DNA from: Pseudomonadota bacterium
Lineage (GTDB): Bacteria; Bdellovibrionota_C; UBA2361; OMII01
Direction of reading: 5' to 3'
Length of the DNA stretch: 38,158 nt
NCBI GenBank assembly: GCA_900299055.1
Contig: OMII01000090.1
Span: forward strand, 1 to 38,158
Shown here: positions 2,342 through 9,202 of the stretch, in pieces
Layout: every line of letters starts with the position of its first letter
Numbering within the stretch: position 1 is the first letter of the stretch
Translations under genes and position numbers: made by a program
Notes under the pieces: generated by a model
The model's database searches: none
Seen by the model: only the letters and a program-made list of their open reading frames with translations
Told to the model about the DNA's origin: nothing

Positions 2342-3121
2342 TCATTCAGTGCCGTTGCACCTCCTTTGATCAAAGAACGGCAGTTCGATCTGCAGCCGTC
2401 CATGTTTTGACAAAATCGGTAACGATGAGAGGGTCTCACTGAACCGCCCAGTCTCAGGCAGAACATCACCCAAAGTTCCGGCGTTGAGGCCAAAAAGCTT
2501 TAACGCTGCGGCGTGGTCATGGGATGGTGCCTGTGTAAATGCCGCTATCTTGCTATTAGACATAGCCAAGAATTGTGCGTAGTAAAGTTTTGGGGTTACC
2601 ACCCTGGGATCTCGATACGGCTTTGGAACGTAGTCCGCCCTTTTTATCCCTCCTGAATCGGCGTAGTAAGGTGAGAAAGCTTCAACGAAACGGGCCATCG
2701 ATTGCTGTGAACACGGAGTATTGGGATCTTGATCTACTCCGAGCGAACATAAAAAGACTCCCAGTACTCGCGACTTTCCCGGCAAAGGCAGCGTAACTCT
2801 GTACGTGCCAACATTTTTGTCGTCAGTTTTTTCCGCAAGGGGCTCTCCTTGCCACTCTATGGGCGACGTCTCTCCGATAGCCTCAACGGTTAATTTGAGC
2901 GCGAGATCACCTCGAGCGTTCTGGAGATCATTAAGAATCAGATCGTAGTCTCCAAACATACAGCGAGATACAGGAACCAAGTCAAAAAGAAAAACTTGCT
3001 CACGTTCTCCTGCTTTGAGCACTGTCATCTCGGCAAGGCCTTCAGCGTAGCTTTTCCTTGCTATGACAAACGCTACAAGGGTAGCACACCCCAATTGCGC
3101 GATCATCCTCCGTAATTTCAT
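2342..3121 (-). CDS. Hypothetical secreted protein, co-oriented with the Hint-domain gene
   Basis: 259-aa ORF with a GGAGG RBS upstream, N-terminal signal peptide-like segment (..ARKSYA/E) and four Cys in the mature part. No family recognised. Confidence 0.7.
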   Translation of the reverse strand: MKLRRMIAQLGCATLVAFVIARKSYAEGLAEMTVLKAGEREQVFLFDLVPVSRCMFGDYDLILNDLQNARGDLALKLTVEAIGETSPIEWQGEPLAEKTDDKNVGTYRVTLPLPGKSRVLGVFLCSLGVDQDPNTPCSQQSMARFVEAFSPYYADSGGIKRADYVPKPYRDPRVVTPKLYYAQFLAMSNSKIAAFTQAPSHDHAAALKLFGLNAGTLGDVLPETGRFSETLSSLPILSKHGRLQIELPFFDQRRCNGTE

Positions 3122-3153
3122 CGTTTATTCCTCCGTGCCCTGGGGAAATTAAC

Positions 3154-4158
3154 CTACTTCTTTCGTTTTGCTGAGATCTCATGCTGTACAATCAGATCTC
3201 CCACCACTAACCCGTCAGCCACCATGAGTCCGTCGCTCGGCAATCCGTGCCGTTCTAAAATAAAATTGATCACAGAGAGTCCTGCCGTAGGTCTCTCCCG
3301 TGATACCTTACGGACCTTGACTTTCTCCCCGGCCGAATCCTGTAGGATGTCTCCTGAGCGGATCTCTTGCGCCTGTCGCCATCCACGCGCCATGAACATC
3401 GGATGCTCGGTGGAAGCTCTAAGTGTCGCCCCATCGGTCTTCAGTACAACAAGCGCTTTCCTCTCGGGGCCCTCAGAGATATTCAGAATTTTCACCGCCT
3501 TCTTGGTCACGGGATTCCAAACTGTCTCGCCTGCGGAGAACTCCTCAATCTTCTTATAGGTCACTCCATCACCGGTGAGAATGTTCACTCCATGAGGGAA
3601 GCAGCCGTACTGCCATCGGACGAGGCCGCAAAGAAAGCAGGATTGCGCAGCGTTGCCCGAGAATTGGCGATCAAACAAACCACTGTCAATTGTCCACTGC
3701 CTCTGATTTATATAATCATTGATGAGGGCGTCGGAGCGAACCCAGGTAAAGTTTGTGACTAAGTTAACTCCTGTGGTGCCGAGTGTCTGTGAATTAGGAT
3801 TCTTGGCACACACCCAGGAAGAGTCGTTATCATTGAGGTACCAGCGCTTTCGAGCTGTATCGTACTCCATCTTAGCGCCATTAAACTGGTACGTGATGCC
3901 GTCGTGCACTTGATTGGCTAATGACACCTGGCTAACCGTTCGCCCGTCACAAAAACTGGCGGGGGGCGGTGGAACGGGCGTTGCCGTAGGCGGCACCGTC
4001 GCTGTCGGTGGAACAGATGTAACGCTATCATTTTGCCCATTTTCGGATTGCCGCTGGGCCCAGGCACGAGTTGCAGTAGCAGATAGCGATCCACCACTAG
4101 AGATGAATATCAACGCTACAAGCAGTCGCTTGCTATGAATATGGCGTTGCCCCTTCAT
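3154..4158 (-). CDS. Secreted protein with C-terminal Hint (Hedgehog/intein) autoprocessing domain
   Basis: Signal peptide and Pro/Thr linker, then G/CFPHGVNILTGDG (Hint block A, Cys codon 3603-3601), LRASTEHPMF (block B TxxH) and VINFILE..GLMVADGLVVGD (blocks F/G). ATG 4158 is preceded by AAGGAAG; the alternative start is GTG 4173. Confidence 0.85.
   Translation of the reverse strand: MKGQRHIHSKRLLVALIFISSGGSLSATATRAWAQRQSENGQNDSVTSVPPTATVPPTATPVPPPPASFCDGRTVSQVSLANQVHDGITYQFNGAKMEYDTARKRWYLNDNDSSWVCAKNPNSQTLGTTGVNLVTNFTWVRSDALINDYINQRQWTIDSGLFDRQFSGNAAQSCFLCGLVRWQYGCFPHGVNILTGDGVTYKKIEEFSAGETVWNPVTKKAVKILNISEGPERKALVVLKTDGATLRASTEHPMFMARGWRQAQEIRSGDILQDSAGEKVKVRKVSRERPTAGLSVINFILERHGLPSDGLMVADGLVVGDLIVQHEISAKRKK
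3958..4017 (-). repeat. Pro/Thr-rich peptide repeat linker (VPPTAT-VPPTAT-PVPPPPA)
   Basis: Seen directly in the translation of the Hint-domain gene. Confidence 0.8.
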
Positions 4159-4565
4159 CGAATCTTCCTTCACGTGATCTCTCGGATTGGTAATCGACTC
4201 CTCGCGAGACTTTCTTGAGTAATGCTTTATTTGCGCCGTGATTACAAGAGTTTGGAAGTTCGTTGTGGGGTTGCCGAATTGCTTTGCTAGCGCTACTTCT
4301 GCCCAATTTCTCTGCGATAATCAGGAAGACTAGGTAGGTGAAACGCACGTCTCTCTTCGTGAGCTCAGTAAGTAAGGAGTGCTCCTCAGCCTCAGCCTCT
4401 GCATCTCGGTACGCTCTGCGATTGTACGAAGCTTAGAGCTTTGAGCTCAGAAATAGCCACTGACTATGTTGTGGTCAGCGGTGCCAGGGAAGGGAGCTGC
4501 GTCTGTGTTGAGGACCCCTTGCCATCGTGTGGTTCATTAGCGTAAGCGCGTGAAGCCAATGTCTG

Positions 4566-5993
4566 TTACGGCTGTTCTATCTCAGCCTCGGCTTGCCGCC
4601 TCTCGGCGGCTGCACGGATCGCTTCTAAGAAGCGGTTGCGAATTTCCTCTCTACGAGCCTCTTCTTCTGAGGCATTCGCGGGTATGCTCTCAGATTCAAC
4701 GGGTTCTTCAGATTCGTTGTAAACCTCCTCGACAGGTGCTGGAGCGCCCGGAGATTTGCTGCTCGCGGACTCTAACAATGAGAAGAGATTGCCAGATTTA
4801 TCTGCCTGGGCTTGGTTCGCTTGAGTCTTGTCATCTGCGGCGCTTTTAAAGTTGGCAACACCGCGCGCCGTATCAAGAAGGGATGTCTTGATAATACTTG
4901 GATAGTGGTCGAGCACAAAATCTTCGCTGGACTTCTTCGATGTCTCCTGCTGGCGAGATAGCGTTGTGTCCGCGACGACTACGTCTGTTGAGCCTTCATC
5001 CTTTATCGAGTGCGCTGGTGCATCGCCCGAAGCTGGGCGCTCTGTTGTTGGCTGGACTTTGTGCTCAGATACTGTGGCTGCCTTAATGGCTGAGCCGCTC
5101 TCGTGTGCGTGAGGTGTTGGGCGCCGTGAATTCGAGAAAAAGCCTATGCCTACCCATACGCTTAGAGCAACACCCAGTGATACTGCTGATACTTTCGCTA
5201 TCGCTTGCCCCCGGCGAGGACGCGTAGGATCCAATAGCGTATCTGTTGAAGCAGGTGTTCCGCTCATTGCTGCAGTCGCGAGAGCTACTTTCTCCGGAGC
5301 TCGGCTAGCTTGCTGGTGTTCTTGGCGTACCTTGTCTCTGATTTCGTTGATGAGTGCGTTGTTATGTGATCCCGCTGCTCCAAAGCCGATCGTTCTCTGA
5401 GAAGTTTGACCAACTTCAATTCGCTCGACTGATTGATTGTCGATCCAGCTCTCAGGCCGATAGGAGAGTGCTGGGATTACGATCAGAGCTTTGCGTGATC
5501 GCGCAAATGTTGCTAGCAAATCCGCTGCGCGTTCACGCCACTGACCGGAGATGTTTTCGAAGGGGTCGTTCAGAACTAGAACCCGCTCGGGATCGGTTGT
5601 GGCGGCGATCAATCGTAGCCTGGCTTCTTGATCAGCACTTAAGTCAGAGCATTTTTTTTCCGCTACGTTCTCAAGGCCGATTTGTAAGAGAAGAGCGTCC
5701 GCGGCCGAGTCGTTGATGTCATGCTTTGCGAGAAAGTCGCGCACAAGTAGTCCGGTTGTAGGTGAAGGCTCTCCAAAGCCGATAACGATATGTTCTTCTG
5801 CGCGGTATTCGTTGCCGGCGCAGGTGACCACGAGATTCTCTTTTCCTGGCGAACCCCCAAGGGCTCTCTGGTAGGGGCGCAGGTCGCTCGGCACTGACGC
5901 TCGAAGCACCGAGATCTTCCCGGCGAGGCAGTTTACCACGTTTAAAAGTTCCCCTGAGTTGGATAGAAGCTTGAGTTGTAACTTGTTCGGCAT
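4566..5993 (-). CDS. Degenerate ABC-ATPase-like domain + single TM helix + low-complexity C-terminal region
   Basis: LSADQEARLRLIAA..PERVLVLNDPFENIS aligns to the ABC signature/Walker B/D-loop. The hydrophobic segment VSAVSLGVALSVWVGIGFF is a likely TM helix. Confidence 0.65.
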   Translation of the reverse strand: MPNKLQLKLLSNSGELLNVVNCLAGKISVLRASVPSDLRPYQRALGGSPGKENLVVTCAGNEYRAEEHIVIGFGEPSPTTGLLVRDFLAKHDINDSAADALLLQIGLENVAEKKCSDLSADQEARLRLIAATTDPERVLVLNDPFENISGQWRERAADLLATFARSRKALIVIPALSYRPESWIDNQSVERIEVGQTSQRTIGFGAAGSHNNALINEIRDKVRQEHQQASRAPEKVALATAAMSGTPASTDTLLDPTRPRRGQAIAKVSAVSLGVALSVWVGIGFFSNSRRPTPHAHESGSAIKAATVSEHKVQPTTERPASGDAPAHSIKDEGSTDVVVADTTLSRQQETSKKSSEDFVLDHYPSIIKTSLLDTARGVANFKSAADDKTQANQAQADKSGNLFSLLESASSKSPGAPAPVEEVYNESEEPVESESIPANASEEEARREEIRNRFLEAIRAAAERRQAEAEIEQP

Positions 5994-7381: not shown

Positions 7382-9202
7382 ATGAACCCCCCAATTATAC
7401 ATCGTGAGGACGCCGTAAAGGTGCGGCAAGCATACGCCACCGCTGGCAAGCGAGTCGGGTTTACGTCGGGGGTATTTGATATCGTGCACCCAGGCCATGT
7501 GGAGTATCTGCGTGCTGCGCGCGAGCTTGTTGATGTTTTGTTTGTTGGTGTTAATTCCGATCTATCCGTCCGAGCTAATAAAGGACCGACAAGGCCCATA
7601 AACTCCGAACGTGATAGAGCGGAGGTCCTGTTGGGGCTCTCCTCGGTCGACCATGTTTTTATCTTCGACGAGCGCAACAACAACACTAATATCGAGCTTC
7701 TGCGCCCGGATGTGTATATCAAAGCAGGGGATTACTCAGAGGAGCGTCTCAGCTCTAAGAAGATAGTGGAGTCTTACGGCGGTTCGGTCGCATTGGTGCC
7801 GTTTCGTGAAGGCAGCTCAACGACTGGAGTCGTTGCAAAGATAAAAGCAGCTCTTGTGACACAAGAAGGACATGAAGTTTCCTATGACTTTCGCCCCGCG
7901 GTGTTCCTCGACCGTGATGGCACCATCAACGAGCATATCGAATATTTAAGCGAGCCCGCGAGGTTTATTCCAATTCCCGGCGCTTACGCGGCAATCAAGC
8001 GTCTTCAAGATCTTGGATATCGGATAGTGGTAGTGACTAATCAGCCCGGAATAGGTCTTGGCTACTTTCGCAGAGAAGATCTATTTGCCGTAAATCGTGA
8101 GATGATGAGACAAGGCACAGAGTACGGCTGTGCTTTTGATAAGATTTACTACTGCCCGCACTCAAAAGCAGACGCCTGTGCGTGTCGTAAACCAGGGACG
8201 TATTTTATCAAGCTGGCAGAGCGAGAATTAAATATAGACCTCGCCAATAGCGTTATCATCGGTGACATGACATCCGATGTAGAATGTGGGGTCCAGTCTG
8301 GCTTGCGTACTGTGTTGGTGAGAACTGGGCGCGGCGGTGATGATAAGATGTTCAAGGTCGCACCGACGCATATAGCCGCTGACCTTGCTGGTGCCGCTGA
8401 GTGGATAGCAGCCCAACCAAAAGTTGCCGCGCGCGAGGGTGGGGCTTCCGTTGTAAAATCGACTGCTCACGATGCACACTTTCTTGCGGCAGCGACCTCT
8501 CTCGCTGACAACCTGGGCCGGGAGTACGCGACGATATTTGGCTCTGTCCTGGGGGGTGCCACTCTGATTGAACAACGTACCAGCACAGATGGCTCACCGT
8601 CGATAGTGGCGGATTCGTTGGATCTGATACGCAAAGCGTCACATCGTGGATTAGCCCTATCGAAGAAGCTTGAGGCGCTGGCGAGAGCGGAGGAGCGGCC
8701 CAGCGCGACGAGATCGCTGGAGTCTTGTGTGAAGGCCGTCATAGAGCTTGTATCAAGTCATCACGGCGATGAGTGTCAGATAGAACTGATATGTCCAGAG
8801 GATGTAGAGGTTGAGGTAGCTGATTTTACCGTCGTGCAGATGTTGCTTGAGCTGTGCGAGAACGCCTTGGAAGCTATGAGAGCCCTACCGGAGCGCTTTA
8901 TCGTGTTTCACGTCGAGAGGCTAGAACTTGACAGCGAAGCGTCTGCTCTTGAATTGAAGCCGGGGTCTTATGCCCGCGTCAGTATTGTCGACCACGGCGA
9001 TGGGCTTGAAGAGCCTCGGGAGCGGGACGGCCTTGTATCCCTCTCGGCGGCCCGCGTAAAAGAGTATGGGCGAGGCCTGGGTCTGAGTATGTTGATGGCC
9101 AAGTCTGTCATGAAGCAACATGGCGGAACCGTGGCTGTGGCGTCTCGCCTGCAGGCGGGGACTAATATATCTCTCTACTTCCCAGTGTCTCATAAATCCT
9201 AG
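7382..9202 (+). CDS. Fusion: D-glycero-D-manno-heptose-1-phosphate adenylyltransferase (HldC/RfaE domain II) + heptose-1,7-bisphosphate phosphatase (GmhB, HAD-IIIA) + degenerate HisKA/HATPase_c
   Basis: Adenylyltransferase: TSGVFDIVHPGH, GVNSDLSVRANKGPTRPIN, KAGDY, SSTT. GmhB: AVFLDRDGTIN, VTNQPG, CPH..CACRKPG, IGDMTSD. HATPase_c: N box LCENALEAM, G1 DHGDG, G2 GRGLGLS, HGGTVAVAS..GTNISLYFP. Confidence 0.88.
   Translation: MNPPIIHREDAVKVRQAYATAGKRVGFTSGVFDIVHPGHVEYLRAARELVDVLFVGVNSDLSVRANKGPTRPINSERDRAEVLLGLSSVDHVFIFDERNNNTNIELLRPDVYIKAGDYSEERLSSKKIVESYGGSVALVPFREGSSTTGVVAKIKAALVTQEGHEVSYDFRPAVFLDRDGTINEHIEYLSEPARFIPIPGAYAAIKRLQDLGYRIVVVTNQPGIGLGYFRREDLFAVNREMMRQGTEYGCAFDKIYYCPHSKADACACRKPGTYFIKLAERELNIDLANSVIIGDMTSDVECGVQSGLRTVLVRTGRGGDDKMFKVAPTHIAADLAGAAEWIAAQPKVAAREGGASVVKSTAHDAHFLAAATSLADNLGREYATIFGSVLGGATLIEQRTSTDGSPSIVADSLDLIRKASHRGLALSKKLEALARAEERPSATRSLESCVKAVIELVSSHHGDECQIELICPEDVEVEVADFTVVQMLLELCENALEAMRALPERFIVFHVERLELDSEASALELKPGSYARVSIVDHGDGLEEPRERDGLVSLSAARVKEYGRGLGLSMLMAKSVMKQHGGTVAVASRLQAGTNISLYFPVSHKS

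What the first reader, a model, noticed from the sequence alone, without database searches (positions are those of the whole stretch)
3154..4158. Secreted Hedgehog-like self-processing protein: small Cys-rich cargo + Hint domain without C-terminal His-Asn
Seen: the order is signal peptide, Pro/Thr linker, a roughly 115-aa domain with four Cys (FCD, WVCA, SCFLCG), then Gly/Cys-Phe starting a Hint domain. It has the block B TEH motif and ends ADGLVVGD where inteins have VHN, followed only by a short tail (LIVQHEISAKRKK). Known: Hint domains with Cys1 and TxxH but no terminal Asn cannot splice; they form an N-terminal thioester resolved by hydrolysis or an external nucleophile (cholesterol in Hedgehog). 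Inference: the exported cargo is released at ..WQYG with an activated C-terminus and may be ligated to a lipid, surface molecule or protein. The layout is the reverse of polymorphic toxins, where the toxin follows the Hint domain.
Basis: partly seen in the sequence, partly recalled or inferred. Interest (0 to 1): 0.8.

Follow-up and report, generated by a model that had tools for sequence, protein, structure and literature searches.

The report
Self-cleaving Hint protein with conserved partner
An exported bacterial protein ends in a Hedgehog/intein-type self-cutting domain and is almost always encoded next to an unannotated exported partner protein, a two-gene module that may release or covalently attach surface proteins.

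Summary
Window 3154..4158 (-) encodes a 334-aa protein. It has a signal peptide, a Pro/Thr linker, a 4-Cys cargo domain, a Gly185|Cys186-Phe junction and a Hint domain (S249-x-x-H252). The domain ends G320-D321 where inteins have His-Asn, followed by a 13-aa tail. Sequence, profile and two structure searches all give inteins, BIL domains or Hedgehog.

It belongs to a large family: 946 representatives at E<=1e-10. In 145 of the 150 listed representatives the Hint domain lies at the extreme C-terminus, behind unrelated cargos. Gly-1 and Cys1 are invariant (144/144). Burglin (2008) noted such bacterial proteins, and this scan has met other C-terminal Hint proteins before on other DNA.

It encodes an exported 259-aa beta-sandwich protein with no Pfam, NCBIfam or PDB match. 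In the 124 species genomes of this phylum, 34 of 41 family Hint genes have it directly downstream. All 23 genomes with the Hint gene have the partner. None of the 9 places matching other Hint types has one on its contig.

Best reading: Hint-driven thioester cleavage in the periplasm, assisted by or aimed at the partner. Cleavage, adduct and binding are untested, and the complex prediction never ran.

The parts
3154..4158 (-). CDS of the cargo-Hint precursor (334 aa, P0001), stop codon included
   Evidence: homologues 46-72% identical over the full length
4164..4170 (-). Shine-Dalgarno-like AAGGAAG before ATG 4158
   Evidence: read from the sequence
4057..4158 (-). signal peptide, residues 1-34, putative cleavage AWA|Q
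   Evidence: read by eye. A hydrophobic N-terminus is found in 98 of 117 full-looking family representatives
3955..4056 (-). low-complexity Pro/Thr linker, residues 35-68
   Evidence: pLDDT below 50
3640..3954 (-). cargo domain, residues 69-173, beta-rich, Cys70 and Cys117, no family match
   Evidence: (pLDDT about 80)
3604..3639 (-). conserved pre-Hint junction C174-x-x-C177-G-x-x-R181-x-x-x-G185
   Evidence: Gly-1 in 144/144; Arg at -5 in 79 and at -4 in 40 of 144; CxxC common
3157..3603 (-). Hint domain plus 13-aa tail, residues 186-334. Cys186 = 3601..3603, His252 = 3403..3405, Asp321 = 3196..3198
3130..3134 (-). GGAGG Shine-Dalgarno sequence of the partner gene, inside the 32-nt intergenic spacer
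2342..3121 (-). CDS of the conserved exported partner (259 aa): signal peptide, then a beta-sandwich with 4 conserved Cys (54, 125, 137, 255), D58 and S233

Best explanation
The locus is a two-gene operon. The first product is exported by Sec. Its C-terminal Hint domain then carries out an N-to-S acyl shift at Gly185|Cys186. This cuts the cargo off and leaves its C-terminal glycine as a thioester, which water or another nucleophile resolves. Splicing is impossible: the intein His-Asn is replaced by the invariant Gly320-Asp321, the next residue is Leu, and only 13 residues follow. The second product is a periplasmic beta-sandwich protein of an unannotated family. It works with the Hint domain rather than with the cargo. 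It may position or supply the nucleophile, doing in trans what the sterol-recognition region does for Hedgehog, or it may receive the cargo itself. Shown here: the anatomy, the Hint fold, the conserved catalytic residues, the variable cargo and the conserved gene pair. Inferred: cleavage, any adduct, and physical contact between Hint and partner.
For: Hint fold and motifs. Family size: 4087 representatives at E<=1e-3, 946 at E<=1e-10 and 56 at E<=1e-30. The Hint domain lies within 28 aa of the C-terminus in 145 of the 150 listed representatives. Gly-1 and Cys1 are found in 144/144 and Phe+1 in 136/144. In the aligned domain rows, [T122/S50]xxH (His in 173), V-x-N (164 and 167), G-D (149 and 148) and Q325 (151) are near-invariant. 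Cargos differ: DUF4215 Cys-rich repeats, dockerin repeats, CGCG repeats, TadE-like N-termini, or none; no toxin or enzyme domain was found. Partner association: all 10 first loci have it. In the order, 17 of 23 partner places have the Hint gene directly upstream, and 2 more are cut by contig ends. In the phylum's 124 genomes, 34 of 41 strong Hint places have the partner directly downstream on the same strand, 2 more are the first gene of a Hint-Hint-partner tandem, and 0 of 9 places matching other Hint types has a partner on the contig. All 23 genomes with the Hint gene have the partner. Nothing else is conserved around the pair in 13 of 13 larger loci. The Hint and partner trees share 12 of 25 splits, against a mean of 0.29 and a maximum of 3 in 500 label shuffles. 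The partner is exported or membrane-tethered facing the periplasm. It folds confidently (pLDDT 84.9, pTM 0.81). The two genes are 32 nt apart and each has its own ribosome-binding site.
Against: No experiment or expression data exist; no RNA run holds the locus. The model of the Hint protein is only moderate (pLDDT 60.2). Adjacency and congruent trees show co-inheritance, not binding, and related genomes are not independent samples. Seven of the 41 Hint genes are not directly followed by the partner. Four genomes have a partner-like gene but no Hint match (G026, G072, G099, G122; two of these have fragments or contig ends). The partner's fold gives no functional lead (best Z 4.9; no Foldseek hit at E<=1e-3). 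The pairing was tested only inside one phylum. A periplasmic thioester might simply hydrolyse.
Confidence: 0.55

Rival explanations
1. Plain self-removing pro-domain. The Hint domain only cuts itself off by hydrolysis to mature or release the cargo, with no ligation. The partner has another role, for example a chaperone, an inhibitor of premature cleavage, or a binder of the released Hint domain.
For: BIL domains mostly give cleaved products (passages read in PMC7765530, and PMC7664689). The protein has no sterol-recognition-like region. The partner's fold is a generic beta-sandwich.
Against: Simple hydrolysis does not explain why a dedicated exported partner is kept with the Hint domain in 34 of 41 cases and across cargo types. 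It also does not explain why the last 12 cargo residues (CxxC..R..G) and Asp321 are conserved.
Confidence: 0.25
2. The Hint-like domain is not catalytic. It serves as a folded binding or docking module for the partner, and the precursor is not cleaved.
For: The His-Asn dyad is lost, and the block-F Asp is replaced by Asn298. Pfam scores for this protein are below threshold.
Against: Gly-1/Cys1 are invariant in 144/144 and the block-B His is present in 173 of the aligned rows. These residues are needed for the acyl shift, not for folding.
Confidence: 0.08
3. A polymorphic-toxin-like pair in which the N-terminal domain is a toxin or effector and the downstream gene is its immunity protein.
For: The Pfam PT-HINT model is the best hit. 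Distant plasmid hits are annotated as polymorphic toxin-type HINT proteins. Cargo is variable and a small gene follows.
Against: The partner carries an export signal and stays homologous while cargos change completely, whereas immunity proteins vary with the toxin. No toxin domain was found in 104 representatives or in 12 full-length loci proteins. The Hint domain comes after the variable part, not before it. PADLOC gives nothing for the Hint protein and only sub-threshold Cas5-model noise for the partner.
Confidence: 0.05
4. BIL-A-like two-ended processing. Asp321 cyclises in place of Asn and cuts off the 13-aa tail, whose free amine may then attack the thioester, joining the tail to the cargo.
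For: Asp321 sits where inteins have the terminal Asn in the motif A-D-G-x-V-x-G-D (read against the RecA intein alignment, and the family consensus). The tail positions L322, Q325 and L328 are conserved. That some inteins use a terminal Asp, and that A-type BILs ligate without a +1 nucleophile, is recalled from the literature; only the titles were seen in reference lists.
Against: The penultimate His is replaced by an invariant Gly. The tail is short and variable beyond Q325/L328.
Confidence: 0.05

Closest known systems
Bacterial proteins with a C-terminal Hint-like domain noted by Burglin 2008 (PMC2362128; passages read). Burglin attributes their earlier detection to Dassa and Pietrokovski; that work was not seen.
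   Same: [quoted passage not shown] Examples named include Myxococcus and Stigmatella.
   Different: Only a sequence observation was reported, with no function. No partner gene is mentioned in the passages read.
Hedgehog/Hog C-terminal autoprocessing domain (PDB 1at0; review PMC9163320, passages read)
   Same: Secreted cargo, Gly|Cys junction, TxxH motif, Hint domain at the C-terminal end, first step an N-S acyl shift. Structural match Z 7.1.
   Different: There is no sterol-recognition region (13-aa tail), no SCYA cysteine (Cys186 is the only Cys in the domain) and no PF01079 hit for this protein. A separately encoded partner is present instead. The Phe after the Cys in Hedgehog is recalled, not seen in a call.
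Bacterial intein-like (BIL) domains, A-type (C. thermocellum, PDB 2lwy) and the Tetrahymena BUBL BIL2 (6tmm/6y75)
   Same: Best sequence and structure matches (2lwy E 7.9e-14 with the family profile; Z 8.0). No +1 nucleophile. Found in variable secreted proteins.
   Different: A-type BILs keep the C-terminal His-Asn (PMC7765530 passage), whereas this protein has Gly-Asp. BILs usually sit inside proteins with a C-terminal flank, whereas here the domain ends the protein.
PT-HINT (PF07591) of polymorphic toxins (Zhang et al. 2012, PMC3482391; passages read)
   Same: Best Pfam model for this protein (26.7 bits). An autoproteolytic release module in exported proteins.
   Different: PT-HINT precedes a C-terminal toxin, and the neighbouring gene encodes an immunity protein. 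Here nothing follows the Hint domain, and the neighbour is conserved regardless of cargo.
Vint domain (PF14623; Tetrahymena structure 8r2c)
   Same: Commonest Pfam hit in the family: 64 of the 104 representatives scanned.
   Different: For this protein the hit is E 0.17 (12.1 bits against a cut-off of 27). The structural match is weak (Z 3.9). Vint proteins are eukaryotic, intracellular and follow a VWA domain.

Membership tests
HINT superfamily | Hint fold | tested here: met
   Foldseek gives 27 hits at E<=1e-3, all inteins, BIL or Hedgehog. VIA-align gives 26 chains at Z>=5 of the same kinds. The model is only moderate (pLDDT 60.2).
HINT superfamily | N-terminal nucleophile (Cys/Ser) and block-B TxxH | tested here: met
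   Cys186, and S249-T-E-H252. In the family, Cys is found in 168 of 168 non-gap rows, and the block-B motif shows T 122/S 50 and His 173.
Inteins (class 1) | C-terminal His-Asn followed by a Cys/Ser/Thr +1 residue and a C-extein | tested here: not met
   Gly320-Asp321-Leu322, then only 12 more residues. Gly appears 149 times and Asp 148 times in the family.
Hedgehog/Hog domain | Gly|Cys cleavage junction at the start of a C-terminal Hint domain on a secreted protein | tested here: met
Hedgehog/Hog domain | sterol/adduct-recognition region after the Hint domain | tested here: not met
   13-aa tail. The tail is at most 28 aa in 145 of 150 representatives.
Hedgehog/Hog domain | SCYA cysteine and a PF01079 match | tested here: not met
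   There is no second Cys in residues 186-334. PF01079 is not among the hits for P0001 at E<=1. 27 of 104 relatives hit it at E<=1e-3; the strongest of those hits belong to multi-Hint proteins.
Hedgehog/Hog domain | general-base Asp (D46/D303) that activates the incoming nucleophile | tested here: inconclusive
   A conserved Glu232 (GPE; 162 rows) lies 20 residues before His252. No residue-level structural superposition was available.
BIL A-type | conserved C-terminal His-Asn | tested here: not met
   the feature is as stated in PMC7765530
BIL B-type / Hint_2 (PF13403) | match to the family model | tested here: inconclusive
   No PF13403 hit for P0001 at E<=1. 21 of 104 relatives hit it. The B-type C-terminal motif was not available for comparison.
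PT-HINT (PF07591) | model match above threshold, with a toxin domain downstream | tested here: not met
   26.7 bits against a cut-off of 27.7. Nothing follows the domain.
Vint (PF14623) | model match and a VWA-Vwaint N-terminal part | tested here: not met
   12.1 bits against a cut-off of 27. No VWA domain is present.
Burglin's bacterial C-terminal Hint-like group | C-terminal Hint-like domain, signal peptide, two conserved upstream Cys | tested here: met
   These are the descriptive features only.
Burglin's bacterial C-terminal Hint-like group | sequence relatedness to the named members (MXAN_6253, plu1731 and others) | not testable with these tools
   The alignments are in closed supplements, and the named genomes could not be reached.

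The most novel reading that the evidence does not exclude
This is a bacterial protein-ligation system built like a split Hedgehog. A C-terminal Hint domain turns the last glycine of many different exported cargos into a thioester. A separately encoded periplasmic beta-sandwich partner then directs that acyl group onto a defined acceptor: the amine of an envelope lipid, peptidoglycan, or the partner itself. That would make it a sortase-like or Atg8-like anchoring route in diderm bacteria, in some lineages tied to Tad pseudopilins.
Probability: 0.22. Interest if true: 0.88.

Novelty: new variant of a known kind. Interest (0 to 1): 0.64.

Why it matters
Hint domains are known as splicing elements (inteins), toxin-release modules and the Hedgehog cholesterol-transfer domain. 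What the many bacterial proteins that simply end in a Hint domain do has been open since they were noticed in 2005-2008. This locus offers a small, tractable example of 334 + 259 aa. It also adds a new lead: an unannotated exported protein family that travels with this Hint type whatever the cargo. If the partner steers the thioester to an acceptor, this would be a previously undescribed way for diderm bacteria to attach proteins covalently. It would also be a natural two-component tool for C-terminal protein labelling. If the partner does nothing of the kind, the pair still defines a new conserved gene family and a clean system for studying Hint cleavage without splicing.

Tried and rejected
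**Complex prediction.** The machine gave no usable answer. There is therefore no verdict on binding.

**Partner annotation.** Pfam and NCBIfam gave nothing. None of 27 partner homologues had a Pfam hit better than E 0.016. A PDB profile search found nothing below E 0.57. ESM Atlas scores were at most 0.76. PADLOC gave only Cas5-model noise. Foldseek found nothing at E<=1e-3. The best VIA-align Z was 4.9, to EMC7, arrestin, pilins, CBM20/21/41 and C2 domains, which indicates only a generic beta-sandwich.

**Cargo domain.** There was no Pfam hit and no Atlas hit. A region search found only 5 close Hint-bearing relatives. The fold search of the whole model was filled by the Hint domain, so the cargo fold is untested.

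**Wider context.** The genome-contig scan gave 2 loci, both in the same phylum set. The metagenome scan gave one locus cut by its contig end. A plasmid tblastn found only 7 distant records: 6 annotated as polymorphic toxin-type HINT proteins and one as a DddA-like deaminase toxin. A PF14623 search of the window's own genome found nothing.

**Regulatory signals.** Promoter and terminator scans gave no more sites than shuffled sequence.

**Literature.** Searches found no paper on a Hint-partner gene pair, on a Hint-Tad link, or on experiments with C-terminal bacterial Hint proteins. The MXAN_6253 search returned 0 papers even though the name occurs with a prefix in PMC2362128, so blank results from this tool are weak evidence.

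**Rejected idea.** The upstream gene 4566..5993 is not part of the module, because it is not conserved next to the pair.

Full report
**What is there.** On the minus strand, 3154..4158 encodes a 334-aa protein. An AAGGAAG ribosome-binding site precedes ATG 4158. There is a hydrophobic signal-like N-terminus ending AWA|Q (residues 1-34, read by eye) and a Pro/Thr linker. A roughly 105-residue beta-rich domain follows, with Cys70 and Cys117. Next comes the stretch C174-F-L-C177-G-L-V-R181-W-Q-Y-G185, and then Cys186-Phe opens a Hint domain containing S249-T-E-H252. The domain ends A-D-G-L-V-V-G320-D321, and 13 more residues follow.

Pfam gives PT-HINT at E 7.6e-6 (26.7 bits, cut-off 27.7), Intein_splicing at 1.7e-3 and Vint at 0.17. 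The closest solved sequence is the Clostridium thermocellum BIL domain 2lwy, at E 0.0045 alone and 7.9e-14 with the family profile. An AlphaFold model from 8 sequences is moderate, with mean pLDDT 60.2. Two independent structure searches nevertheless return only inteins, BIL domains and Hedgehog at the top: 27 Foldseek hits at E<=1e-3 and 26 chains at Z>=5.

**The family.** A profile of 8 homologues (A1) was searched against 1.84 billion representative proteins. It finds 4087 at E<=1e-3, 946 at E<=1e-10 and 56 at E<=1e-30. Of the 150 listed, 145 have the Hint domain within 28 residues of the C-terminus. The other 5 are multi-Hint proteins of another kind. In the 144 C-terminal domains whose first Cys aligns, Gly-1 and Cys1 are invariant and Phe+1 occurs in 136. 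An Arg lies at -5 in 79 cases or at -4 in 40, and two cysteines lie in the last 15 or so cargo residues.

Inside the domain, [T/S]xxH-P, V-x-N, G-D and a Gln four residues later are nearly invariant. The consensus A-D-G-I-V-T-G-D lines up with the intein motif that ends His-Asn, so Gly-Asp replaces His-Asn. I read this from the RecA intein alignment and the consensus; it is not a structural superposition. Of the 104 representatives scanned against Pfam (104 of the 150), 64 hit Vint, 38 PT-HINT, 27 Hint, 25 Hom_end_hint and 21 Hint_2. N-terminal domains are mostly unassigned: DUF4215 in 5, Tim44 in 5 (the multi-Hint set), and dockerin and TadE in 1 each. A hydrophobic N-terminus is present in 98 of 117 full-looking representatives.

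**The cargo varies.** In relatives of the window's genome the same Hint type ends proteins of 229 to 1148 aa. Their N-terminal parts are unrelated. They include up to 21 DUF4215 Cys-rich repeats, dockerin-type repeats, CGCG repeats, TadE-like N-termini, or almost nothing. No toxin or enzyme domain was found. The window's own cargo domain recurs in about 15 representatives, always with the Hint domain. It has four conserved cysteines and no recognisable catalytic motif. Its fold remains untested.

**The partner.** A second gene, 2342..3121, lies 32 nt downstream with its own GGAGG site. It encodes a 259-aa protein with a signal peptide. It has no hit in Pfam or NCBIfam and none in PDB sequences. 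The Atlas gave nothing, and no source names it. With 27 homologues it folds confidently into a beta-sandwich with helical inserts (pLDDT 84.9, pTM 0.81). That fold resembles nothing in particular. Four cysteines, D58 and S233 are conserved.

The partner gene follows the Hint gene in all 10 loci first found with the Hint protein. Searching the order with the partner profile gave 23 places in 15 of 91 genomes. Of these, 17 have the Hint gene directly upstream and 2 are cut by contig ends. The other 4 lack it: one fragment, one truncated copy and two membrane-anchored variants.

In the whole phylum (124 species genomes), the partner occurs in 27 genomes. The family Hint profile matches 50 places in 29 genomes, and 41 of those places are strong matches that include the C-terminal motif. 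By coordinates, 34 of the 41 have the partner directly downstream on the same strand. Two are the first gene of a Hint-Hint-partner tandem, one is convergent at 81 nt, and four lie 2.8-6.7 kb away. None of the 9 weaker matches, which are other Hint types, has a partner on its contig. All 23 genomes with a strong Hint match have the partner; four genomes have a partner-like gene only.

In 13 of 13 longer loci, nothing but these two genes is conserved. Hint and partner trees for 28 pairs share 12 of 25 splits, against a mean of 0.29 and a maximum of 3 in 500 label shuffles. Pairwise identities correlate, with Pearson 0.81 and Spearman 0.40. These figures show that the two genes are inherited as a unit. 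Related genomes are not independent, and none of this shows binding.

**A link to Tad pili in some lineages.** Where the pair is split, the genes in between are TadE-like and TadG/VWA pseudopilins (G120). In G078 they are a TadE-like gene and a Laminin_G_3 protein. Several Hint proteins themselves start with a TadE-like segment: P0010 by Pfam, and G036 and G078 by eye. In these versions the partner carries an N-terminal membrane helix and a Pro/Ala linker. This places the partner in the periplasm.

**Mechanism.** The following is established knowledge, from passages read in PMC9163320, PMC7664689 and PMC7765530. A Hint domain with Cys1 and the block-B His can shift the preceding peptide bond to a thioester. 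Hedgehog stops there and lets cholesterol, held by the sterol-recognition region, attack. BIL domains without a +1 nucleophile mostly cleave.

Here the acyl-shift residues are kept, and those needed for splicing are absent. I therefore infer cleavage at Gly185|Cys186 after export. The partner is kept with the Hint domain rather than with any cargo, is exported, and co-diverges with the Hint domain. I therefore infer that it acts on the Hint step. It could position a nucleophile, as the sterol-recognition region does, or accept the cargo, or control the reaction. Asp321 sits where inteins have the Asn next to the active site, and the conserved Glu232 is another candidate; either could act as a general base. 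Both are guesses. The acceptor is unknown. An envelope lipid amine, peptidoglycan and the partner itself are possibilities that I could not rank.

**Comparison and novelty.** The protein is a member of the HINT superfamily. It is not an intein, not a Hog domain (no sterol-recognition region, no SCYA cysteine), not an A-type BIL (no His-Asn), not PT-HINT in architecture, and not a Vint protein. It fits the description of bacterial C-terminal Hint-like proteins in Burglin 2008, but I could not compare sequences. Earlier notes of this scan report C-terminal Hint domains on secreted proteins in at least 27 other genomes, some with a fused tail domain. None shares sequence with this locus or reports a separate partner gene.

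I found no paper describing the gene pair. Large parts of the literature are not in that library. I rate the locus a new variant of a known kind.

**Limits.** The complex prediction could not be run. There are no expression data. The pairing was tested only within one phylum of uncultured bacteria, whose record titles call them delta-proteobacterial or proteobacterial MAGs. The window itself is ordinary core chromosome, carrying mreB/mreC, PBP2, rodA, dnaK/dnaJ and IMP dehydrogenase.

Noticed in passing
L075 (G078:C16), L077 and L078 (G120), L043 (G036), protein P0010: In some lineages the Hint-partner module is interleaved with Tad pseudopilin genes (TadE-like, TadG/VWA). Alternatively, the Hint protein itself starts with a TadE-like prepilin segment. 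There the partner is membrane-tethered by an N-terminal helix.
   Followed up: partly
proteins P0025, P0030, P0047, P0086, P0102 (one search list): Proteins of 786-1132 aa carry 3-5 tandem PT-HINT-type domains. In the three that were scanned (P0025, P0030, P0086), one or two Tim44-like domains follow. This is an unusual architecture, unrelated to the C-terminal family.
   Followed up: partly
L076 (G026:C4:5027-6082), L079 (G099:C13:5001-5852): Partner-like genes occur without any family Hint gene nearby. G026 and G099 also have no strong Hint match anywhere in the genome, so the partner family may have a Hint-independent role in some genomes.
   Followed up: partly
window 4566..5993 (-): A 475-aa protein. 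Residues 90-175 weakly match only the signature/Walker-B part of ABC ATPases (E about 1e-3, far below the cut-offs). A hydrophobic segment and a long acidic low-complexity tail follow. It is not conserved next to the Hint pair.
   Followed up: no
window 7382..9202 (+): One 606-aa ORF combines a cytidylyltransferase-like domain, a HAD-like phosphatase domain and a histidine-kinase-type ATPase domain (HATPase_c), an uncommon fusion.
   Followed up: no
L041 (G047:C9) and G046:C43: Two Hint genes lie in tandem ahead of one partner gene. One of them is a minimal 229-aa protein: signal peptide, a Ser/Gly/Gln-rich stretch and the Hint domain.
   Followed up: partly
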